A stretch of 64,000 nt of DNA from UHGV virus genome UHGV-1488776; one strand, given 5' to 3'. The DNA is from a virus. The notes under the pieces are model-generated. The model did not search any database, had not been told where the DNA came from, and was given only the letters and a program-made list of their open reading frames with translations. Shown piece by piece: positions 5,769 to 64,000 of the stretch. How positions within the stretch are numbered: the first letter of the stretch is position 1; every line of letters begins with the position of its first letter. A program made the translations under genes and the position numbers.

Positions 5769-7133
5769 ATGTCTGCATCCCCTCTTGAATCCATGCCAAA
5801 TTCCCTTAGTGCAGAACAAGCTGTACTTGGTGGCTTAATGCTTGATAACTGCCGCTGGGATGAAGTTGCAGATCGTATAGTTGCTGATGATTTTTATACC
5901 AGTGCTCATCGTGAAATTTTCAGTGAGATGGAGAGGTTATTAAGTCATGGCAAACCGATTGATTTGATAACACTTGCTGAAGCACTTGAACAGAACGGTA
6001 AATTAGAACGCGCCGGTGGTTTTGCGTACCTTGCGGAGATGTCAAAGAACACGCCCAGCGCGGCAAATATTTGTGCTTATGCGGATATCGTTCGTGAACG
6101 CGCGGTTGTTCGTGAAATGATTTCCGTCGCAAATGAAATAGCTGAAGCTGGATATGCGCAGGATGGCCGGGGCAGCAATGAATTGCTGGATATGGCCGAA
6201 CGCCGCGTTTTTGAAATAGCTGAAAAACGACAAAAGAGCGGTAGTGGTCCAAAAGATATCGCCAGCATTCTCGATGCAACGGTATCTCGCATAGAAGAGT
6301 TGTTTCAGCGACCGCATGATGGTGTAACGGGACTTGATACCGGATTTACCGATCTCAATAAGAAGACGGCAGGGCTTCAGTCGTCCGATCTCATCATTGT
6401 CGCCGCCCGCCCATCTATGGGGAAGACCACGTTTGCGATGAATCTCGTCGAAAATGCCGCAGTTCGTAACGATAAGCCCGTATTGGTTTTTAGCCTTGAG
6501 ATGCCGAGCCACCAGCTGATGATGCGCTCACTGGCTTCTCTTGCACGCGTTGATCAGACTCGTATTCGGACAGGGCAACTTAACGACGAGGATTGGGCGC
6601 GGGTTTCTGGCGCAATGGGTATTCTGTTGGACAAGCAGAATATTTTTATTGATGACTCAAGCGCCCTGACACCTACAGAGCTTCGTTCCCGCGCTCGTCG
6701 TGTTTATAAAGAAAATGGTGGTTTGAGCATGATTATGATCGACTACCTGCAACTTATGCGCGTCCCCGAGCTGCAAGATAACCGAACGCTGGAAATTGCC
6801 GAGATTTCTCGCTCACTGAAGGCGTTGGCGAAGGAATTACAAGTACCGGTGGTGGCATTGTCACAACTTAATCGATCGCTTGAACAGCGTGCGGACAAAC
6901 GACCGGTAAATTCAGATTTACGTGAATCAGGAGCAATTGAGCAGGACGCAGACCTGATCATGTTTCTGTATCGCGACGAAGTTTATCACCCGGATAGCGA
7001 AATGAAGGGCATTGCCGAGGTAATTATCGGAAAGCAACGAAATGGCCCAATTGGCACGGTGAGATTGGCTTTTAACGGCCAATACTCACGGTTTGATAAC
7101 TATGCTGGTGCTGACTGGCAAGAGGATTATTAA
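5769..7133 (+). CDS. ban: replicative DNA helicase, DnaB family
   Basis: DnaB N-terminal domain (AVLGGLMLDN) and RecA-like core with Walker A RPSMGKTTFAMN; 454 aa from the ATG at 5769. Confidence 0.9.
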   Translation: MSASPLESMPNSLSAEQAVLGGLMLDNCRWDEVADRIVADDFYTSAHREIFSEMERLLSHGKPIDLITLAEALEQNGKLERAGGFAYLAEMSKNTPSAANICAYADIVRERAVVREMISVANEIAEAGYAQDGRGSNELLDMAERRVFEIAEKRQKSGSGPKDIASILDATVSRIEELFQRPHDGVTGLDTGFTDLNKKTAGLQSSDLIIVAARPSMGKTTFAMNLVENAAVRNDKPVLVFSLEMPSHQLMMRSLASLARVDQTRIRTGQLNDEDWARVSGAMGILLDKQNIFIDDSSALTPTELRSRARRVYKENGGLSMIMIDYLQLMRVPELQDNRTLEIAEISRSLKALAKELQVPVVALSQLNRSLEQRADKRPVNSDLRESGAIEQDADLIMFLYRDEVYHPDSEMKGIAEVIIGKQRNGPIGTVRLAFNGQYSRFDNYAGADWQEDY

Positions 7134-8131
7134 TGCAATGGAATGAGGAAAAGCCGATGAACATCCTGATCATTGGGCGAAAATTTGAAGCTATCAGTGA
7201 TGTGAAAACATATACGGAAATGTGGGCTTATAACCTGGCCTGCGCCTTTAGTGAGGCAGGGGTAACATTGCAATACCATCGTCCATATTCCCCTGGCGTC
7301 GAAAGCCCGGAGGATTATGTTGAAGCTGTGTTGACTGCTGCGACCGCATGTTCTGCGAAGGCCATTTTGGCACCAGGATTGAGGTATTTTACTACGGTAC
7401 CCAGGGAAATAGGCATGCAACTGTGTCGCCGATTCTCTGGATGGGTAGCCCAGGTATATGACGGTTCTATGCTGGATTCGGCACCAGTCGATATTACTTT
7501 TACTGTCCGCGATGATACCTGGCGGTACCTGGATAATCCCGGCAGGTTAGAGCGTCATAATCGTTTTAACAAACATGTTGGATGGGCAGCGAATCAGGAG
7601 CTGTTCCATCTGGAAACCAAAACAGACGATGTTCTGCGTATTTTTGTAGACCACGCTGCATTTGATGTTAGTGGTTTTGATCACTCCTTAAGTATCCTTA
7701 TGAACCTTCAGCGTCTGACCGTTCCGTATGAGGCCAGAACGTTGACTGATGACGGATTGGTTACCATTGATCCGGGGAATATTTCGGTAACTCCATACAG
7801 GCGGACGCCGGTGCCAGCAACCGAATTTGCAGCTGAATTGCGTAAGAGTGACGTTTTTATCGTTACGCATCCCGAAAGCCTTGGATTAACTGTTCTTGAG
7901 GCGGCAATGTGTGGAGCGTTGGTATTAACGCCTCCCGATTGCCTTCCGCCGGATCGCCTGGAGTTGGTGAACCATATGGTTATCAAGTCGCGGATTGATT
8001 GGGATGAGGTTATTGCTCGCGTTGATCGCGTGAAAAATGCTGAAAAGGTCCAGTGTCACACCTGGTCGGCAATTGCGGAAAAGATGCTTGAGACGTTTAT
8101 CACGCAGAAACCGTCGCGCGGTAACGGATAA
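7133..8131 (+). CDS. dbn: hypothetical protein downstream of ban
   Basis: Start overlaps ban stop (TAATG); alternative start at 7157 with GAGGAAAA SD; no recognisable motif. Confidence 0.55.
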   Translation: MQWNEEKPMNILIIGRKFEAISDVKTYTEMWAYNLACAFSEAGVTLQYHRPYSPGVESPEDYVEAVLTAATACSAKAILAPGLRYFTTVPREIGMQLCRRFSGWVAQVYDGSMLDSAPVDITFTVRDDTWRYLDNPGRLERHNRFNKHVGWAANQELFHLETKTDDVLRIFVDHAAFDVSGFDHSLSILMNLQRLTVPYEARTLTDDGLVTIDPGNISVTPYRRTPVPATEFAAELRKSDVFIVTHPESLGLTVLEAAMCGALVLTPPDCLPPDRLELVNHMVIKSRIDWDEVIARVDRVKNAEKVQCHTWSAIAEKMLETFITQKPSRGNG

Positions 8132-8177: not shown

Positions 8178-11324
<3,147 letters not shown>

Positions 11325-12542
11325 TTATCCTTTCCGTTTACGGGCTTCGTTAATTTGTGTCTCAAGAATGCTTCGCGCCTGCGCGGTGGCAGCGGCCTTG
11401 TCCATTCCCTGACTCATGAAAAACTTTATGAGGTTGTTCGCCTGCGTTTGCAGGGCTTTTTTGAGAGCGTCGGCTTCAGCGCGAGCCTGGGCTTCCCTCA
11501 CCCGCGATGCTTTTAGTTCGGCATTCTTCCTGTTTGCCGTGGTGCGAGCTTTTTTTAACAACCGGCGAACGTTGTCCGTGGCGCTATCTTTGGCGCGTAG
11601 TTTTTTGCCTAATGCATCCTGAGATTTCAGATATAACTCATACTCACGCGCCGCTTTAGCCTGATCCGTCGTTGTTGTCCGGTTGCGCGCGAGCGATTTA
11701 GCCAGTTCGCCTTTGAAATAGGTTGTTGTCTTCCGCTTGTCATCGCCGAAGGCCACCTGTTCAGCTGCTTTTTCCAGGGCAATAATGATGGCCTTGTGCC
11801 ATGTGGGAGACTGAAAACGCGTCATAGCGTGCAAAACATGTTTGCAAGCCACACCAGTCAGATCAGGGTTGCGGATTTTAGGGAAGGCATACTCTTTTGG
11901 CGGCGTGACAGCATAGTTACCAGCCGTGGCCATATAACGATACCAGTATTGATGGCGTCCACAATCACAGTCGAAAGATACCCGGCCCTTGCAGAGATCG
12001 GCAGCGATTCGGGCTTTTTTCGCACCGTCTTCAGCAATTTCCTCAACGGCTTTATCCCATTCCTCAAATCGAATTCTGACACGGTGATGCTGGTGGACCG
12101 ACTCATCCGAGGCATTAACAGATATCAATGCAAGGTTGTGTTTTAGCCCGAGGAATGTCGCGGCTTTGATCCCTGTGCCATCAGAAACTTTGTTGTTAGC
12201 GCGTTTTATATCAATGCTGGTGGACTGCGCCACCAGCTGAGCATAGGTAATGCCGGGTACCGTGCTCTTGAATTTGGTTTTATGAGCCTGCCTTGAGGTG
12301 TTGAAACTGCGTATATCTTCGGGCGTAAAGTAGGTGCCATCTTTCTTTTTCCCAAGGCTGAGGAATGCCTCAAGTTCGCGGTTACGCATCCCCATAATCC
12401 TTGGGGTGAGTGTACGTCGCGCGTTTCGCCGATTCTGACGCTGCTGTTTACGGATAAGATCGAAGACCTTGTTAAAGTCTTTTGCACTTAATCCATCAGT
12501 CTGATAGCGACCAAGATTGTCGCGAGCATATTCAGTTGGCAT
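11325..12542 (-). CDS. hypothetical protein with Cys/His cluster and basic coiled-coil C-terminus
   Basis: 405 aa; CDCGRHQYWYRYMATAGNYAVTPPKEYAFPKIRNPDLTGVACKHVLH suggests a zinc-binding motif. Confidence 0.5.
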   Translation of the reverse strand: MPTEYARDNLGRYQTDGLSAKDFNKVFDLIRKQQRQNRRNARRTLTPRIMGMRNRELEAFLSLGKKKDGTYFTPEDIRSFNTSRQAHKTKFKSTVPGITYAQLVAQSTSIDIKRANNKVSDGTGIKAATFLGLKHNLALISVNASDESVHQHHRVRIRFEEWDKAVEEIAEDGAKKARIAADLCKGRVSFDCDCGRHQYWYRYMATAGNYAVTPPKEYAFPKIRNPDLTGVACKHVLHAMTRFQSPTWHKAIIIALEKAAEQVAFGDDKRKTTTYFKGELAKSLARNRTTTTDQAKAAREYELYLKSQDALGKKLRAKDSATDNVRRLLKKARTTANRKNAELKASRVREAQARAEADALKKALQTQANNLIKFFMSQGMDKAAATAQARSILETQINEARKRKG

Positions 12543-54088: not shown

Positions 54089-54395
54089 AATATACGATCT
54101 GGTCTACATGATCACCAAAATCATCGTCGTCGTCCTCATCGCCACCATCTACTGCTGGCCAATCAACAAACCAGCCAGCGTAAAGATGCAGCGTTCGGAG
54201 AACATCACTTGCGGGAGCATCAAGGGTGTTAACGAATCCCATATAGCTATTGGGATTTGCTCCAGCTATGGCTTCAGCGATCATGTCCTCGGTAATGTCA
54301 CCGGAGATAATGCTTAAACGCCCGGAAACTTCTTCATTATCATCAAATTCGATAATGGCATCTCCGCCTAATGGCGCTGCGATTTTAATCTGCAT
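54087..54395 (-). CDS. acidic hypothetical protein, last gene of dar operon
   Basis: 102 aa, C-terminal DGGDEDDDDDFGD; overlaps upstream gene end. Confidence 0.45.
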   Translation of the reverse strand: MQIKIAAPLGGDAIIEFDDNEEVSGRLSIISGDITEDMIAEAIAGANPNSYMGFVNTLDAPASDVLRTLHLYAGWFVDWPAVDGGDEDDDDDFGDHVDQIVY

Positions 54396-57372
54396 TATTT
54401 AGCTCCTTTGCCACACCTAATAACAGTTCCAGCAATCCGTCACCATTCATCAGTGATGCGGCAGCGGCCTCTTTGTCATGATACAACTGAAGAGCCATAG
54501 AGAATACTTCCGTTGCTGACGTTTTGGAAATAGTCGGTGATTTCTGCCGAATTTTCCCGGAATTACTCACTGAGGCTGGCGGGTATACCTTCGCCATATA
54601 AATATTACTCAATCGAGATCTGAAGCACCATTCAGGCTTGCCACGCCCACCGATATTAACGAAAGATGGCTTATCCCCTTCAACATTGGCCTTCAGGAAT
54701 GACCGGGCTTTCTCTAACAAACCAGGGTTACTGTACTCAAGATGATGACCCAGCTCGTGCCACAGTGCACTTGCATTTTCATCGTTCAAATTGACAGCAA
54801 CAACACCATTAAGATTTGCATATGCCCTTCCCTGGTGGTGAACCACCTTTGTTAAGGTCGAAATTTTACCGCCGGTCAGGCGATAAATATCAGCAAGTTC
54901 CTTGCGCAGGTCTATCCCACCATTCTGTCCAGCGCGGGCTTCTTCCACTTCTTCCGTGATAAAAGAGTCGGCCCACTCAAGAGCTTTTTCTTCAGATACG
55001 GATGAGTTGGCGATCGCACTGTTCATGGCAGATAACACTTTCTCGTGGACCGAACCCATACTTCGCTGATTCATTTGCCAGCGTGTCTGCGGGTTATATG
55101 AGAATCGCTTAAGTAGTTGGTCAAGCTGCTCAAGTTCTTCTTCACTGACATACTTTTTAGCCTCACCAATAATGCCAGGGAGAATATTGCCGTTAGGATT
55201 AAACGCTCGCGAAAGGAAGAGTTTCAGCGCCCCCATGCCCTCCGATGCTTCAATATCACCAATAACCCGGTTAACAATGGCCGCACTCTTCGGATTAGCA
55301 TCCGCCAACGCTCTGGCTACGATTTGCAGGGACGATACGACCTCACGCTGCATATCCGTCCTGATCTCATCAATAAACTCTGGCGTTATGCCGTGCTCTT
55401 TAAGGATATCCCGGCCTTCCGCCGTTACCCCATCGATATCACCGACATGTTTATTAACACGACTTTGCAATGCCTTAAATGCCTTCAGAATTCCACGGGC
55501 ATCACCCGCTTTACTAACGGCCTTCCTGAATGCTGGCAAGAAGTCAGAGTTAACCTCATTTTGTTGATCGGCCCACTGAATGGAGGCTTCTTTCATCTCG
55601 TCCAGAGTCAGATCACCCAACGCGGTATGGTCTGTGAATATGAGCGACAACCTCTGAACCATTTCTGCCAATGGTGATGCCGAATGCGCCGCGCTAAGGA
55701 ATGCTTTCACCCTGGTTGGGCGAATGGAAAACCAGTCAATAGCTGGTGGCATATCTCCGTTTTTTATCGCCTGCGCTATCTCATCAAAGCCGTCGCGCCC
55801 AAGGGAGGATGCGTGATTTAACAATCCGCGAAGTAACGAATTGCTGATACCGAATAATCGGCACCATTTATTCACGTCGGCAACAGGCATTCGAACAAAA
55901 TGCGCAAGCACTTGTACAAGCTGTTCATCCTGGGGATCTGTACGGGAAAGCAGCCTGATCAGATGAATAATGTCTTTGATGCCGGATGCCCGATGTAATA
56001 GCAAGCTGGTATATGGAGCAACACCGTTGTAACTACCGCCGGAAACGGACTCGAAAAGACCGCCGGATATCCCTTGCATGCCTTCGTTTTCCAGTTCCTG
56101 AGACACCTGGCGAAGGATATCCTGTAACGACACATCACCACCGCCAAACATATCCCCCAGCGCCTGGCCCTGGTGCTGTAACTCATCATTGATACGTTGA
56201 GCCATCAATTTAAAGGCGGTGGCCATACGCTTCGCGCTACGGTTATTCGCGACGATGAACAACGCGAGAGCTTTCACTTCCGGGGCTGTTTCGCTGAACA
56301 TATCCCCCTGAGCAATAACATCGGTAATATGTTGGCCTGACTCCTTCGATTGCCTTACCAGGTCTACCGCATCTTTCAATGCCGCCAGCGCCTTTTTATC
56401 GAGACTATCCGCTGTCTCAATACCATCAACAATAGTTGTCACAGCCTGCTTGTGCGCTTCTCCTGATAAAGCCTGCATCTGGACAAAATCATTGGCTGCC
56501 GCATTAAGCGCCGTCAGAACATTACGCATATCCGGATCAGGTTCTTCTGCAACCATTCTTACCAAGCGCGCATCCTTATATGCCTTGGCAAAGATCGCGT
56601 TTTGTATACGGTCAACAAGTTGCCGTGTTGGTCGCCCATCTTCCGTTACAAGGCCAGCAGCCTGTGTGGCACCAACTTGCGTCATGAATCCGCGAATAAA
56701 CGCGTCATTACTGCGGCTAAGCAGATCTCCGCTTTCTGATGGGTTAAACAGCGCCATCATCGCCGGAGTTATGCTGTCGGCATCAACAAAAGCCTTTTCA
56801 CTGGCTGCCATTTCCTGGAGATCAGAAATATTTGAGTCCTTGGCAAACTGAACACGGTCAACCTTCGTTAACCGGCGGCGCACCAGTACCGGAGCCGTCA
56901 TTGATTCAACCTTTTCAGGTCGTATTCCGAATTCGGTCGCATGTTCAATCAGGTACTCCCGATACCGATCCGCATTACCGTCCTGATAGGCTTTAATGAT
57001 CCCCATGGTCCTCCCATTACCTGACTCAACGGCATTGTCCTCACCAATTATCGGCGCGCCATGGCTGGATAAACCGGAATCAGTAAGCTGAGCAGGCCGC
57101 AAATCTTTGGATATCTGGTTAACCTGAAGAAGGCTGGATGCGCGGGTCCGGTCGCGCGGTTGAAGTTCCTGGGGATAGTCAGGATTAATTTTCCCATCCA
57201 GAGTATTGGATACCAAAAGAGCTGAGGCATCGACGATATCAAACGCTGTTTTTACCTCGTCTCCCTTCGCTGTCACCACATACGAAACCCGCCCATAATC
57301 GGGCAGGTTCTTTAGCAGCTCGATCAGCGTTTCTATGCTGGTGGCCATTACCACCTGATCGCTTAAGCTCAT
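54385..57372 (-). CDS. ddrB: DdrB-like capsid antirestriction component with HExxH motif
   Basis: 995 aa; position after darA-ddrA; C-terminal ALWHELGHHLEY zincin-like motif. Confidence 0.6.
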   Translation of the reverse strand: MSLSDQVVMATSIETLIELLKNLPDYGRVSYVVTAKGDEVKTAFDIVDASALLVSNTLDGKINPDYPQELQPRDRTRASSLLQVNQISKDLRPAQLTDSGLSSHGAPIIGEDNAVESGNGRTMGIIKAYQDGNADRYREYLIEHATEFGIRPEKVESMTAPVLVRRRLTKVDRVQFAKDSNISDLQEMAASEKAFVDADSITPAMMALFNPSESGDLLSRSNDAFIRGFMTQVGATQAAGLVTEDGRPTRQLVDRIQNAIFAKAYKDARLVRMVAEEPDPDMRNVLTALNAAANDFVQMQALSGEAHKQAVTTIVDGIETADSLDKKALAALKDAVDLVRQSKESGQHITDVIAQGDMFSETAPEVKALALFIVANNRSAKRMATAFKLMAQRINDELQHQGQALGDMFGGGDVSLQDILRQVSQELENEGMQGISGGLFESVSGGSYNGVAPYTSLLLHRASGIKDIIHLIRLLSRTDPQDEQLVQVLAHFVRMPVADVNKWCRLFGISNSLLRGLLNHASSLGRDGFDEIAQAIKNGDMPPAIDWFSIRPTRVKAFLSAAHSASPLAEMVQRLSLIFTDHTALGDLTLDEMKEASIQWADQQNEVNSDFLPAFRKAVSKAGDARGILKAFKALQSRVNKHVGDIDGVTAEGRDILKEHGITPEFIDEIRTDMQREVVSSLQIVARALADANPKSAAIVNRVIGDIEASEGMGALKLFLSRAFNPNGNILPGIIGEAKKYVSEEELEQLDQLLKRFSYNPQTRWQMNQRSMGSVHEKVLSAMNSAIANSSVSEEKALEWADSFITEEVEEARAGQNGGIDLRKELADIYRLTGGKISTLTKVVHHQGRAYANLNGVVAVNLNDENASALWHELGHHLEYSNPGLLEKARSFLKANVEGDKPSFVNIGGRGKPEWCFRSRLSNIYMAKVYPPASVSNSGKIRQKSPTISKTSATEVFSMALQLYHDKEAAAASLMNGDGLLELLLGVAKELNNAD

Positions 57373-57384
57373 CCCTGTTACGCC

Positions 57385-57750
57385 TTATGCTGCCTCTTTA
57401 ATGTTGGCGGCTATCCATGCCGCCGTGTGCTGTTTAACCTGGTCCAGGTCGATGTATGTGCCAACATATTGATTCAAATCCTGCAAGGTACCGATAAATG
57501 CATCGGTGCTCTGATCGACGAATTTATCAGCCAGGAAATCAGCAACCAGTTTTGGCACACCATCATGTTCCGAAGGTTGTTTTTCCTCGCCACTACCACC
57601 GCCGGACGCGCCGTACCCCATCTGTTGCATGATCTGGTCAATTTCATCGCTGATATCCAGCAACTCCATACCACTCGCGGTAGCCGCTTTGGACATCAGA
57701 GCATCCAACTTATCGCTGAGATCCATTAACTCAATAGCTGATAGTGTCAT
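57385..57750 (-). CDS. ddrA: DdrA-like small acidic protein
   Basis: 121 aa; start overlaps darA stop. Confidence 0.5.
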   Translation of the reverse strand: MTLSAIELMDLSDKLDALMSKAATASGMELLDISDEIDQIMQQMGYGASGGGSGEEKQPSEHDGVPKLVADFLADKFVDQSTDAFIGTLQDLNQYVGTYIDLDQVKQHTAAWIAANIKEAA

Positions 57751-61026: not shown

Positions 61027-61100
61027 AAGTTCCCTCCTACGTTGTCAGGAGGTAATGGTATGCAAAGTAACTTCTCAACCGGTTATGTTGCATAAGAGAC

Positions 61101-61364: not shown

Positions 61365-61799
61365 TTTTTACCTATACAACAGTAAGTTGAACAACATTTG
61401 AGAACGGTATGCACTTTGTGATTTCCACACACACTGGTTTTGTTAATTAAAACCTGTGGCTTGCAATAAATAACGATAGTGGGCAAAAAATATGCTAATA
61501 GGCTATGTACGCATATAGACAAATGAACAAAACACAGCTATGCAGTGAAAAGCACTTGAAAGCGCAGGATGTGAGCTAATTTTTGCGAATAAGGCGAGCA
61601 GCAAAAAGGCTGGGCACCCTGGGTTAAAAAAGGTTCTGCGTATGCTTTCCAGAGGTGATACCCTAGTCTCGGACTAGGGACAACATTTCGAGAACAGTTT
61701 TCATTAGCGGTCAGCAGGCGCTAGATACATCGAATTGATGTGCCGCGCGATAAATGTACCTATTCTATCATGATAAATTACACCGACGCGGCATTAGAA

Positions 61800-62372
61800 T
61801 TACAGCTCAGATTGAGTTTGGCGCTTCTCTACAGGATGATAACGATAAATCGTCGATACACCGATATCGTAAATAATTGCCAACTGTTTCCTGCTGTAGC
61901 CATTTTCGATCAACCTCGCTATTTGCTCATGTTGTTCTTTTGTCAACTTCGGGCGACGTCCGCCAATGCGTCCCTGTTCGCGTGCAGCTGCCAGTCCGGC
62001 CAGTGTTCTCTCAACAATTAATTCACGTTCCATTTCTGCTAAAGCACCCATGACATGAAAAAAGAAACGCCCCATGGGTGTTGATGTGTCAATACTGTCT
62101 GTCAGACTACGGAAATTAACACCTTTTTCCCGCAACTCCTCTATAAGCGTGATAAGGTGTTTCATACTTCTGCCAAGCCTATCCAGCTTCCAGACAACCA
62201 GCGTATCTCCTTCTGATAACGTTCTGAGCAGCTTTTTCAAGCCTGGTCTGGCTGACTTTGTTCCGCTTATTTTATCTTCAAAAATCAGTTCACATCCTGC
62301 GCAGTTCAGTGCATTTCTTTGTAAATCTGTGTTTTGGTCATTTGTTGACACACGAATGTAGCCAATTTGCAT
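61800..62372 (-). CDS. cin: Cin-family serine DNA invertase
   Basis: 190 aa from MQIGYIRVSTNDQ; resolvase catalytic domain plus C-terminal HTH. Confidence 0.9.
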   Translation of the reverse strand: MQIGYIRVSTNDQNTDLQRNALNCAGCELIFEDKISGTKSARPGLKKLLRTLSEGDTLVVWKLDRLGRSMKHLITLIEELREKGVNFRSLTDSIDTSTPMGRFFFHVMGALAEMERELIVERTLAGLAAAREQGRIGGRRPKLTKEQHEQIARLIENGYSRKQLAIIYDIGVSTIYRYHPVEKRQTQSEL

Positions 62373-62433
62373 GAAAAACAACCTCTTTGTTTAGTTAAAA
62401 ATACATCGTTGGTATAGGTAGGGATTAAGACTA

Positions 62434-62452
62434 AAACGTTGGTTTGGGGGAA
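62434..62452. other. cix-like crossover site 1
   Basis: AAACGTTGGTTTGGGGGAA; complement TTCCCCCAAACC matches invertase half-site family; 60 nt from cin start. Confidence 0.55.
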
Positions 62453-62920
62453 GGCTCTGCATTGCCTGTTGGCGTACCTGTTCCGTGGCCCTCAGCCACT
62501 CCGCCAACAGGCTGGCTAAAATGCAACGGAGCAGCATTTTCTTCTGAAATGTACCCCAGGCTGGCAAAGGCTTATCCCACCAATAAATTACCGGATTTAC
62601 GGGGAGAATTTATTCGCGGCTGGGATGATGGGCGCGGGGTGGATGCGGGACGTGCTTTATTGAGCATTCAGACAGGAATGCTGGAAAAGCACCGACATAT
62701 TGTTGTAGCCAATGATGGTTACGACACAAAAGATGAATGGGAGCTGGCGACAATTTTCAAAAAAACATACACACAAGGACGGGGGCTTGATGCCTCAAAT
62801 ACAGGAGGGAATTTGATTCCATCACCGACACTTCATTCTCGAGGGAGTATTGGTAATACTGGCGGGAGTGAAACCCGTCCACGAAATATCGCATTTAATT
62901 ACATCGTAAGGGCGGCATAA
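62444..62920 (+). CDS. tail-fibre C-terminal cassette 1 (tail-collar domain; no own ATG)
   Basis: Conserved GEGSALPVGVPVPWPSATPPTGWLKCNG ... LPDLRGEFIRGWDD head, variable middle, RPRNIAFNYIVRAA end; begins inside cix-like site. Confidence 0.6.
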   Translation: MGEGSALPVGVPVPWPSATPPTGWLKCNGAAFSSEMYPRLAKAYPTNKLPDLRGEFIRGWDDGRGVDAGRALLSIQTGMLEKHRHIVVANDGYDTKDEWELATIFKKTYTQGRGLDASNTGGNLIPSPTLHSRGSIGNTGGSETRPRNIAFNYIVRAA

Positions 62921-62939
62921 AAACGTTGGTTTGGGGGAA
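62921..62939. other. cix-like crossover site 2
   Basis: Identical 19-mer AAACGTTGGTTTGGGGGAA. Confidence 0.55.
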
Positions 62940-63392
62940 GGCTCTGCATTGCCTGTTGGTGTGCCCGTTCCGTGGCCCTCAGCCACACCACCAACGGGCT
63001 GGCTGAAATGTAACGGAGCAGCATTTTCTTCTGAAATGTACCCCAGGCTGGCAAAGGCTTATCCGACCAATAAATTACCGGATTTACGGGGCGAATTTAT
63101 CCGTGGCTGGGATGACGGACGAGGTATTGATGCAGGACGAGAGATACTTTCATTTCAGGAAGGCACTATCGTCTCCGGTTTTGATGATAATGATACTGGG
63201 GATATCAGTTCACTCAGCTCAACACAATACGGATTTGGTGACACTTTAACCTCTAATCAATGGGGGGCCATAAATGGCAAAAAGTGGATATTTGATGCAT
63301 CCAGTAAAGGTGCCAAAAAATATGACTGGTGGGCTTATGTATCAGCTCGCCCCCGTAATATTGCATTTAATTACATCGTAAGAGCGGCATAG
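62931..63392 (+). CDS. tail-fibre C-terminal cassette 2
   Basis: Same conserved head and RPRNIAFNYIVRAA end; different variable core. Confidence 0.6.
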   Translation: MGEGSALPVGVPVPWPSATPPTGWLKCNGAAFSSEMYPRLAKAYPTNKLPDLRGEFIRGWDDGRGIDAGREILSFQEGTIVSGFDDNDTGDISSLSSTQYGFGDTLTSNQWGAINGKKWIFDASSKGAKKYDWWAYVSARPRNIAFNYIVRAA

Positions 63393-63411
63393 AAACGTTG
63401 GTTTAGGGGAA
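63393..63411. other. cix-like crossover site 3
   Basis: AAACGTTGGTTTAGGGGAA (1 mismatch). Confidence 0.5.
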
Positions 63412-63906
63412 GGCTCGGCACTGCCCGTTGGTGTACCTGTTCCGTGGCCCTCCGCCACACCACCAACGGGGTGGCTGAAATGTAACGGAGCAGCATTTTC
63501 TTCTGAAAAGTACCCAAATCTGGCAAAGGTTTACCCAACGTTAAAATTACCTGATTTACGCGGTGAGTTTATCCGTGGTTGGGATGATTCGAGAGGGATT
63601 GATACAGGGCGTTCATTGCTAAGTGGTCAGACTGCAACATTTATTCGTACAGCTTTGCAGGATTATTACGGTGTCGATCTGACTACTAATGTCAAAGTAG
63701 GTATCGCTTATGCTACTGCTGATTCTGTTATAACTGTTGGAAACCCTGCTAATCCTAAAGCAGGAGATAATAGCGATTATGTTCCAGCATCATCAGATAA
63801 CTCCATAACAGGCACTCAAAGGACGGCAGAGGATAATTTTACCGGGGCATGGATATCAATGCGCCCCCGCAACGTTGCTTTTAATTACATTGTAAGGGCC
63901 ACATAA
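63403..63906 (+). CDS. tail-fibre C-terminal cassette 3
   Basis: Frame LGEGSALPVGVPVPWP ... RPRNVAFNYIVRAT opens at the cix-like site with no start codon; ORF track only shows the part from 63616. Confidence 0.55.
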   Translation, partial: LGEGSALPVGVPVPWPSATPPTGWLKCNGAAFSSEKYPNLAKVYPTLKLPDLRGEFIRGWDDSRGIDTGRSLLSGQTATFIRTALQDYYGVDLTTNVKVGIAYATADSVITVGNPANPKAGDNSDYVPASSDNSITGTQRTAEDNFTGAWISMRPRNVAFNYIVRAT

Positions 63907-63923
63907 AAACGTTGGTTTGGGGG
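63905..63923. other. cix-like crossover site 4
   Basis: AAACGTTGGTTTGGGGGAA. Confidence 0.55.
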
Positions 63924-64000
63924 AAGGCTCTGCGCTGCCCGTTGGTGTGCCTGTTCCGTGGCCCTCAGCCACACCGCCAGCAGGGTGGCTGAAATGTAAC
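63915..64000 (+). CDS. tail-fibre C-terminal cassette 4 (truncated by window edge)
   Basis: Same conserved head sequence continuing to window end. Confidence 0.5.

What the first reader, a model, noticed from the sequence alone, without database searches (positions are those of the whole stretch)
62373..64000. At least four tandem tail-fibre C-terminal cassettes, each behind a cix-like site, next to cin
Right after cin there are four copies of a roughly 200-bp conserved block. Each starts with AAACGTTGGTTTGGGGGAA (complement TTCCCCCAAACC, the serine-invertase half-site pattern) and encodes the same tail-collar head (LPDLRGEFIRGWDD), a different variable core, and the same ...PRN(I/V)AFNYIVRA(A/T) end. 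None has its own ATG or RBS; the frame opens inside the site. P1 as I remember it has only two alternative S variable parts plus U/U', so this looks like a Min/shufflon-style multi-cassette host-range switch in which an inverted site beyond the window fuses the constant tail-fibre part to any one cassette.
Basis: partly seen in the sequence, partly recalled or inferred. Interest (0 to 1): 0.7.

Follow-up and report, generated by a model that had tools for sequence, protein, structure and literature searches.

The report
p15B-type Min tail-fibre inversion array
This is the start of the long-known "Min" multiple-inversion switch of P1-like plasmid prophages, which swaps the tip of the phage tail fibre among many silent cassettes to change host range; it is real and correctly read, but ordinary and already described.

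Summary
Four direct copies of AAACGTTGGTTT(G/A)GGGGAA lie at 62434, 62921, 63393 and 63907, against 0.02 expected by chance. Each opens a start-less reading frame with a phage tail-collar head, a different core and the same PRN(I/V)AFNYIVRA(A/T) end. The fourth is cut by the window end.

These are mix sites of the p15B Min system. Two of the four 26-mers match published p15B mix sites exactly, including the one that abuts the invertase gene.

It is 74% identical to P1 Cin and lies in the opposite orientation. A decayed cin 5' remnant lies beside it, and P1's own GenBank annotation points to the same remnant in p15B.

The window is a P1-like IncY phage-plasmid of E. coli, 99.4% identical over 22 kb to pCFSAN004177G_03. 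Relatives carry 8-10 sites. One inverted site lies at the end of a 739-codon constant S part, and one tail-fibre assembly gene is present. The window's cassettes A and C are found fused in frame to that constant part in other isolates. Cassette order differs from plasmid to plasmid.

The Min/shufflon reading is supported. Novelty is low, because the system was described in 1990-92 and is common in sequenced E. coli.

The parts
61381..61669 (+). Decayed remnant of a P1-type cin gene: upstream region plus the first ~178 nt, with the ATG at 61492 and in-frame stops. It includes a second enhancer-like copy at about 61510-61581.
   Evidence: 87.5% identity (252/288) to P1 L005 5549-5838, which covers the cin promoter region and the cin 5' end. 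The translation reads MLIGYVRI*TNEQ.... The P1 GenBank annotation records the same homology with p15B nt 7147-7408.
61800..62372 (-). min-type serine DNA invertase gene (190 aa, catalytic Ser in YIRVSTNDQ). Its 5' end faces the cassette array.
   Evidence: Pfam Resolvase E=2e-51 and HTH_7 E=3e-15. 74% identical to P1 Cin. The exact sequence equals UniRef Q05517_ECOLX 'DNA-invertase' and is seen on at least 1000 contigs.
62283..62354 (-). Enhancer-like element inside the invertase gene, at +19 to +90 of the coding sequence (the presumed Fis-dependent recombinational enhancer).
   Evidence: 60/71 (84.5%) identical to the annotated P1 cin enhancer, and at the same position relative to the start codon. 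Function is inferred, not tested.
62427..62452 (-). mix site 1. Read on the - strand it is TTCCCCCAAACC AA CGTTTTAGTCTT, with the core dinucleotide at 62439-62440. Its outer half is the non-coding flank next to min.
   Evidence: Identical to the published p15B mixMl''L' (one search compared).
62439..62920 (+). Silent cassette A (160 codons from the core; collar head, core ...IQTGMLEKHRHIVVANDGYD..., end PRNIAFNYIVRAA*).
   Evidence: (Collar E=9e-15). The same cassette is fused to the constant S part in pFUJ80155-1 (L007). It occurs in both orientations and at various positions in L001-L004 and L013-L018.
62914..62939 (-). mix site 2 (TTCCCCCAAACC AA CGTTTTTATGCC). Its outer half contains the stop codon of cassette A.
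   Evidence: It differs at one position from the published mixMr''N'.
62926..63392 (+). Silent cassette B (155 codons; core ...SFQEGTIVSGFDDNDTGD...).
   Evidence: The exact protein is indexed in 171 blocks of the collection, including chromosomal P2-like prophages.
63386..63411 (-). mix site 3 (TTCCCCTAAACC AA CGTTTCTATGCC).
63398..63906 (+). Silent cassette C (169 codons; core ...GQTATFIRTALQDYYG...; end PRNVAFNYIVRAT*).
   Evidence: It is fused to the constant S part in L014, and in L008 with assembly frameshifts.
63900..63925 (-). mix site 4 (TTCCCCCAAACC AA CGTTTTTATGTG).
   Evidence: Identical to the published p15B mixN''O' (one search compared).
63912..64000 (+). Start of a fourth cassette (conserved head only), cut off by the end of the window.

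Best explanation
The region is the invertase-proximal end of a p15B-type Min multiple DNA inversion array on a P1-like (IncY) plasmid prophage of E. coli.

The serine invertase Min, with a Fis-type enhancer inside its own gene, recombines pairs of oppositely oriented 26-bp mix sites at their central TT/AA dinucleotide.

One mix site lies at the 3' end of the constant part (Sc, 739 codons) of tail-fibre gene S, a few kb beyond the window. Every other mix site sits at the 5' end of a promoter-less, start-less cassette.

Inversion between the Sc site and a cassette site joins Sc ...SVLDYL in frame to GLGEGSALPVG... of that cassette. Each phage genome therefore makes one of about nine tail-fibre tips.

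The conserved head and the conserved C-terminal strand of each cassette together resemble the collar of the T4 gp37 tip. The variable core between them is presumably the receptor-binding part.

The four cassettes in the window all point away from min, so in this isomer they are silent spares.

What is shown:
- site identity with p15B;
- cassette anatomy and reading frame;
- the invertase gene;
- the full architecture in relatives;
- natural isomers and Sc-cassette fusions.

What is inferred:
- that this molecule has the Sc partner site;
- that Min and the enhancer are active;
- that the cores set host range.
For: - Sites: four sites against 0.02 expected. Two of the four 26-mers are identical to published p15B mix sites, including the min-flank site. 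The others differ by 1-2 bases.
- Invertase: intact, 74% identical to Cin, and exactly equal to a database DNA-invertase seen on at least 1000 contigs. The enhancer-like element sits at the same position as in cin.
- Backbone: 99.4% identical over 22.4 kb to IncY plasmid pCFSAN004177G_03.
- Architecture in relatives: they have 8-10 mix sites. Exactly one has the half-site TTCTTGATTACC, at the end of an open 739-codon (or 683-codon) frame carrying Phage_fiber_2 repeats. One Caudo_TAP gene is present.
- Shuffling: cassette orders differ among plasmids (for example L004 min|L D E C B A H F|G-Sc, and L014 min|B L A H D E G|F C-Sc). Seven different cassettes are found fused to Sc across isolates.
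- Crossover position: in the chromosomal prophages L009-L012 the upstream 12-mer stays with its context and the head stays with its cassette. That places the crossover in a 22-nt interval around the core.
- Protein fold: the cassette matches the T4 gp37 tip (2xgf, E=1e-17), including the terminal NIAFNYIVR.
- Literature: Min is described as a serine-invertase shufflon giving variable tail fibres. A 5-kb segment 99% identical to p15B min is reported in a P7-like plasmid. A reverse-oriented invertase 98.5% identical to Min is reported in a P1-like plasmid.
Against: - The window ends inside the array, so the inverted partner site, the S constant part and the tail-fibre assembly gene of this particular molecule are not seen.
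- No record in the plasmid or complete E. coli genome collections has exactly the order min-A-B-C.
- Cassette B was not found fused to the P1-type Sc at 95% identity or better in PLSDB.
- No inversion was observed directly. All evidence for activity is comparative.
- Cassette heads are mosaics between plasmids, so homologous recombination also acts on these repeats.
- How the single assembly gene is expressed when it points against the S operon is unexplained.
Confidence: 0.93

Rival explanations
1. A frozen relic: the array is real, but in this molecule it no longer switches, because the partner site or S gene is lost or the invertase or enhancer is inactive. The cassettes would then be dead spares.
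For: The partner site lies outside the window and is unseen. Published P1-like plasmids exist with truncated invertase genes or a deleted C segment. Some relatives show shortened or frameshifted arrays (L007 and L008).
Against: The invertase is full length and identical to a very widespread protein. All three complete cassettes are intact open frames. All four sites keep the core and the good half-site. The closest backbone relative has the complete system. Many frameshifts in relatives look like long-read assembly noise.
Confidence: 0.05
2. Four independently expressed paralogous small tail proteins, as automatic annotation calls them ('phage tail protein', TTG starts), not parts of a switch.
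For: PGAP annotates such cassettes as separate CDS in relatives. ORF callers find TTG starts.
Against: There is no ATG, no Shine-Dalgarno sequence and no excess of promoter-like sites (2 found against 4.5 expected). Each frame opens only 1-5 codons before the crossover core. The same cassettes occur fused in frame to the 739-codon S constant part in other isolates. One database entry is explicitly named 'alternative C-terminus of phage tail fiber protein'.
Confidence: 0.01
3. Rearrangement driven by RecA-type homologous recombination between the ~260-bp conserved blocks, rather than by site-specific recombination at mix sites.
For: The blocks are long and 81-97% identical. Heads are mosaics across plasmids, which shows that homologous exchange happens.
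Against: Junctions in clean isomer sets (L009-L012) map to a 22-nt interval containing the core. The sites equal experimentally defined p15B crossover sites. A dedicated invertase with an enhancer is adjacent.
Confidence: 0.01

Closest known systems
Min multiple inversion system of plasmid p15B (E. coli 15T-; Sandmeier, Iida, Arber 1990-92; GenBank X62121)
   Same: - The same 26-bp crossover sites, two of four identical.
- An invertase gene whose 5' end abuts the array.
- A neighbouring cin pseudogene remnant.
- A constant S part of 739 codons. This matches my recollection of the 1991 paper, and I observed it in L003.
- Start-less cassettes with a common head.
- One convergent two-cassette segment carrying the assembly gene.
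   Different: p15B has 6 sites in 3.5 kb (and my memory of the papers). Relatives of this window have 8-10 sites in about 5 kb, and the window alone shows at least 4. I could not read the p15B sequence or the original papers here, so cassette-by-cassette identity is untested.
Cin / C segment of phage P1 (and Gin / G segment of Mu)
   Same: A Din-family serine invertase (74% identical to Cin). An enhancer inside the invertase gene. A crossover site inside tail-fibre gene S that splits it into constant and variable parts. The same genomic neighbourhood (ddrB, ddrA, darA, hdf, lydB, lydA, lydC on one side, R-S on the other).
   Different: P1 has two cix sites and two alternatives, each with its own U gene. 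cin points towards the segment, with its 3' end at cixL. Here there are many sites and a single assembly gene, the invertase is oriented the other way, and the variable parts are short (~155 aa) collar-type tips rather than the ~530-aa Sv of P1.
R64 shufflon (Rci) and the Bifidobacterium phage Rin shufflon
   Same: Multiple inversions among several sites. They select one of several C-terminal ends for a receptor-recognising protein (PilV, or the phage receptor-binding protein).
   Different: Those systems use tyrosine recombinases and unrelated sites. This one uses a serine invertase.
T4 gp37 long tail fibre tip (PDB 2XGF) and gp12-type short tail fibres
   Same: The cassette head and its terminal NIAFNYIVR strand align with the parts of gp37 that form the collar (E=1e-17). 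Pfam Collar is matched.
   Different: In T4 this is a fixed gene end, not a cassette. The variable insert is much shorter here.

Membership tests
p15B-type Min multiple inversion system | An adjacent Din-family (Hin/Gin/Cin/Pin/Min) serine invertase gene | tested here: met
   Resolvase plus HTH_7 domains. 74% identical to P1 Cin. Exact match to UniRef Q05517_ECOLX DNA-invertase. I could not confirm that Q05517 is the p15B entry itself.
p15B-type Min multiple inversion system | More than two 26-bp crossover sites matching the mix sequences (good half-site TTCCCC(C/T)AAACC, core AA, poor half-site) | tested here: met
   Four sites in the window. Sites 1 and 4 are identical to the published mixMl''L' and mixN''O', and sites 2 and 3 differ by 1-2 bases.
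p15B-type Min multiple inversion system | At least one site in inverted orientation, at the end of the constant part of the tail-fibre gene | not testable with these tools
   There is no inverted copy in the 64-kb window, because the array runs off the end. The feature is present in every complete relative examined (L003, L004, L013, L014, L017, L001+L019).
p15B-type Min multiple inversion system | Cassettes lack their own start and are in frame with the constant part across the crossover core | tested here: met
   Frames open 1-5 codons before the core, with no ATG or SD. The Sc frame ...SVLDYL joins GLGEG... in relatives.
p15B-type Min multiple inversion system | A recombinational enhancer in cis | tested here: inconclusive
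   84.5% identity to the annotated P1 cin enhancer, at the same position in the gene. Fis binding and function cannot be tested here.
p15B-type Min multiple inversion system | The array actually inverts, so isomers exist | tested here: met
   This is comparative evidence only. The same cassettes occur in different orders, in both orientations, and fused to Sc across plasmids. L009 and L010 differ by a whole-segment inversion at one chromosomal locus. It was not tested for this molecule.
P1 Cin / C-segment system | Two cix sites bracketing a 4.2-kb segment with Sv-U and Sv'-U', and cin reading towards cixL | tested here: not met
   There are at least 4 direct sites, the cassettes are ~155 aa with no U between them, and the invertase has the opposite orientation. 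Only a decayed cin remnant is left at the P1 position.

The most novel reading that the evidence does not exclude
The array in this plasmid family is an expanded Min system of 8-10 cassettes. By the 8! x 2 rule that reproduces the published 240 for p15B, that allows about 80,640 isomers. The cassettes are drawn from a shared pool of at least 13 types that also circulates, at 100% amino-acid identity, in chromosomal P2-like prophages. A single tail-fibre assembly gene would either serve all tips through their common C-terminal collar strand, or be dispensable for most of them, even in the roughly half of isomers where it points against the S operon.
Probability: 0.35. Interest if true: 0.35.

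Novelty: already known. Interest (0 to 1): 0.15.

Why it matters
For genome annotation, the point is practical. Pipelines label these cassettes as separate 'phage tail protein' genes. Assemblers also often mis-join, frameshift or duplicate the array, because a lysogen culture is a mixture of isomers.

For biology, the system sets the host range of a very common family of E. coli phage-plasmids, some of which carry mcr-1 or ESBL genes. Knowing which tip is expressed therefore bears on how such plasmids spread by infection. None of this changes current understanding, because the mechanism was worked out for p15B more than thirty years ago.

Tried and rejected
- Original papers: I tried to read the Sandmeier papers (PMC53420, PMC329034, PMC206102), the P1 genome paper (PMC523184) and Johnson's 2015 review (PMC4384473). 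None is held. The figures of 240 isomers and 739 codons for p15B therefore rest on my memory. The 739-codon frame was seen directly in relatives.
- Source record: I looked for the exact source record, or any record with the order min-A-B-C, in phages, plasmids and complete E. coli genomes. None was found.
- Chimeric queries: I built 'Sc end + cassette' queries. Cassette A gave one clean single-piece hit (AP024695.1). Cassette C gave full-coverage hits split into pieces by the S repeats, confirmed afterwards in L014. Cassette B gave only 84% matches.
- Expression of the assembly gene: I searched for a P1 late promoter (AAGTTACTT...TAnnnT) reading into the array from the min side, which would explain expression of the assembly gene in anti-oriented isomers. 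Only LPs and LPdar equivalents were found. The sigma-70 scan showed no enrichment.
- Doubled array: I considered that the apparent 16-17-site array of CP088508.1 was a real doubled array. Its many frameshifts make an assembly artefact more likely.
- Not used: I ran no structure prediction or large protein searches, because the question was settled without them.
Full report
**Observation**

The 19-mer AAACGTTGGTTTGGGGGAA, allowing up to 3 mismatches, occurs four times in the window. All four are on the + strand, at 62434, 62921, 63393 and 63907, and there is no other copy on either strand. Chance expectation is 0.02.

Repeat finding and alignment show a conserved block. It runs from about 45 nt before each site to about 215 nt after it. 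An unalignable core of 200-260 nt follows, then a conserved 40-nt end. Spacings are 487, 472 and 514 nt.

In the frame that reads A AAC GTT GGT TTG GGG GAA, each unit encodes three parts:
- a near-identical head, NVGLGEGSALPVGVPVPWPSATPPTGWLKCNGAAFSSE.YP.LAK.YPT.KLPDLRGEFIRGWDD;
- a different core;
- the end RPRN(I/V)AFNYIVRA(A/T).

The frames open only 1-5 codons upstream of the site. They have no ATG before codon ~39 and no ribosome-binding sequence. The fourth unit is cut by the window end.

**Context**

Upstream on the - strand are ORFs with the lengths and order of P1 ddrB (995 aa), ddrA (121), darA (639), hdf (203), lydB (147), lydA (109) and lydC (87).

Positions 40000-62400 are 99.4% identical over their full length to the IncY plasmid pCFSAN004177G_03. 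In all, 836 plasmid records match this stretch, 745 of them Escherichia and 73 Salmonella. The window is therefore a P1-like plasmid prophage.

**The invertase**

The ORF at 61800-62372 (-) has Resolvase and HTH_7 domains. It is 74% identical to P1 Cin. Its exact sequence is a database 'DNA-invertase' (UniRef Q05517_ECOLX) seen on at least 1000 contigs.

In P1 the 3' end of cin abuts cixL. Here the 5' end of the gene faces the array. Positions 62283-62354 are 84.5% identical to the annotated P1 cin enhancer and lie at the same distance from the start codon.

Just beyond the 3' end of this gene, positions 61381-61669 (+) are 87.5% identical to the P1 cin promoter region and the first 178 nt of cin. 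They carry in-frame stops, so this is a cin pseudogene remnant in the P1 position and orientation. The P1 GenBank record notes the same two homologies with p15B, at nt 7147-7408 and 6463-6533. A published P1-like plasmid is reported to have a reverse-oriented invertase 98.5% identical to Min of p15B.

**The sites**

A published table of Din-family crossover sites lists the six p15B mix sites (PMC3241671). Read on the - strand, the window sites are:
- site 1: TTCCCCCAAACC AA CGTTTTAGTCTT, identical to mixMl''L', the site next to min;
- site 2: TTCCCCCAAACC AA CGTTTTTATGCC;
- site 3: TTCCCCTAAACC AA CGTTTCTATGCC;
- site 4: TTCCCCCAAACC AA CGTTTTTATGTG, identical to mixN''O'.

The good half-site encodes the start of each cassette head. 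The poor half-site is the end of the preceding cassette, including its stop codon. These are mix sites.

**What lies beyond the window, judged from relatives**

Complete arrays in relatives have 8-10 such sites:

| Locus | Record | Sites |
|---|---|---|
| L003 | pCFSAN004177G_03 | 9 |
| L004 | pSA186_4 | 9 |
| L014 | draft-assembly contig | 9 |
| L017 | draft-assembly contig | 9 |
| L013 | draft-assembly contig | 8 |
| L001+L019 | pEH09-18-41_2 | 10 |

Exactly one site per array has the outer half TTCTTGATTACC. It lies at the end of a long open frame (739 codons in L003, 683 in L004) rich in Phage_fiber_2 repeats. That frame is the constant part of tail-fibre gene S, preceded by R. Across that site the frame reads ...SIQSVLDYL|GLGEGSALPVG. 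One Caudo_TAP assembly gene is present, always directly behind one particular cassette.

I clustered the cores into 13 types, A-M, with A, B and C being the window's three. The arrays read, for example:
- L004: min|L> D> E> C> B> A> H> F> Sc|G<
- L003: Sc|F> G< ?< A< E< K< H< I< min|C<
- L014: min|B> L> A> H> D> E> G> F< Sc|C<
- L017: Sc|E> C> D> B> A> H> G> F< min|L<

The same cassettes therefore occur in different orders and in both orientations. Seven different types (A, C, D, E, F, G, I) are found fused to Sc in one isolate or another. Every array is a run of '>' cassettes followed by a run of '<' cassettes. F and G (with the assembly gene) always form the convergent pair, because no site lies between them. 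This corresponds to the 'M' segment of p15B.

The rule (number of segments)! x 2 gives 240 for five segments, which is the figure I remember for p15B. It gives 80,640 for eight segments. This is inference.

**Crossover position**

The exact protein of cassette B also occurs in chromosomal P2-like prophages. These have a four-site array, an invertase and one assembly gene (L009-L012). L009 and L010 sit at the same chromosomal locus and differ by inversion of the whole segment. L011 and L012 are further isomers.

In this set the 12 nt upstream of the core always stay with their context: the invertase flank, the previous cassette end, or the H constant part. The first head polymorphism, at +20, stays with the cassette. 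Exchange therefore falls in a 22-nt interval around the TT core.

Among the P1-like plasmids the heads are mosaics. The same core carries different head polymorphisms in different plasmids. Homologous exchange or gene conversion therefore also acts on the heads over evolutionary time.

**Protein anatomy**

Each cassette hits Pfam Collar (E about 1e-14). Against solved structures, the best match is the T4 gp37 long tail-fibre tip (2xgf, E=1.2e-17). The head aligns to the start of that fragment, and the final ...TRPRNIAFNYIVRAA aligns to its last residues...NIAFNYIVRLA. A short tail fibre (9cuy) aligns over the whole cassette.

As I recall the published 2XGF structure (not checked here), the gp37 chain leaves the collar, forms the tip and returns to the collar. 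On that basis the conserved head and conserved end of each cassette would fold together, and the variable core would be the exposed receptor-binding insert. This explains the 'same head, different core, same end' pattern.

**Mechanism**

Established knowledge of Hin, Gin and Cin invertases gives the following. Two sites and the Fis-bound enhancer form an invertasome. Double-strand cleavage with a 2-nt stagger at the core is followed by 180-degree subunit rotation. There is a strong bias for inversion over deletion.

Applied here, Min recombines the Sc site, or any '>' site, with any '<' site. The four direct sites in the window do not recombine with each other productively. They are partners for the oppositely oriented sites further on. 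In the isomer captured in the window, A, B, C and the fourth cassette are silent.

**Comparison with the literature and novelty**

Min of p15B is cited in the literature as the coliphage shufflon, a serine invertase system generating variable tail fibres. A P7-like mcr-1 plasmid was reported to carry a 5-kb putative invertible segment 99% identical to the p15B min region.

In the plasmid collection, 206 records match the region, many with 6-16 matching places each. Among complete E. coli genomes, 1379 of 5426 have some match to the 2.3-kb query, but most of these matches are below 90% identity.

The finding is therefore a correct recognition of a known and common system. The larger cassette number relative to p15B, and the shared cassette pool with P2-like prophages, are modest extensions.

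**Open points**

- The partner site for this molecule is unseen.
- No direct evidence of switching exists for this strain.
- In roughly half of the isomers the assembly gene points against the S operon. I found no P1-type late promoter reading in from the min side. Its expression, or its necessity for the other tips, is unexplained.

Noticed in passing
window 61381-61669 (+): A decayed 5' remnant of a P1-type cin gene with its promoter region (ATG at 61492, in-frame stops). It includes a second enhancer-like copy at about 61510-61581. It lies tail-to-tail with the active min-type invertase gene. According to the P1 GenBank annotation, p15B has the same remnant.
   Followed up: partly
window 61055-61073 (-): AAGTTACTTTGCATACCAT is identical to the -22 box and -10 of the P1 late promoter LPdar. 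It reads towards the lydA/lydB/dar genes.
   Followed up: partly
L009-L012 (chromosomal contigs of four E. coli assemblies), array at about 9500-12100 of each locus: Chromosomal P2-like prophages carry a four-site version of the same system (invertase, four collar cassettes, one assembly gene). Cassette B is identical in amino-acid sequence to the window's copy, and types A and K are also present. L009 and L010 are inversion isomers at one chromosomal locus.
   Followed up: partly
L001+L019 (NZ_CP063505.1, record origin); L002/L006 (CP088508.1); L008 (NZ_CP044439.1): Several public assemblies look damaged in this array. One has a ~168-bp overlap duplication inside a cassette head, exactly at the record origin. 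One has an apparently doubled array with two assembly genes and many frameshifts. One has frameshifted cassettes. These are probably effects of assembling a mixed population of isomers from noisy long reads.
   Followed up: partly
L001 10732 (+) and 13342 (-): pEH09-18-41_2 carries the same cassette type (E) twice, in opposite orientations, in a 10-site array. This is a ~500-bp inverted repeat that could also recombine homologously.
   Followed up: no
cassette heads, e.g. window 62441-62650 compared with L001, L003, L007, L014 and L016: The ~200-bp conserved heads are mosaics. The same variable core carries different head polymorphisms in different plasmids. This implies homologous exchange or gene conversion between cassettes, in addition to site-specific crossover.
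   Followed up: partly
relatives: L003 9129-9740, L004 11473-12084, L014 13291-13902: The single tail-fibre assembly gene follows only one cassette type. In about half of the isomers it points against the S operon. No P1 late promoter reads into the array from the invertase side, so how it is expressed, or whether the other tips need it, is unexplained.
   Followed up: partly
L004 1317-2525 and L017 10246-11454: Some relatives have an IS605-family TnpB gene inserted between ddrA and ddrB. The window has no such insertion there (ddrA at 57385-57750 is followed directly by ddrB at 54385-57372).
   Followed up: no
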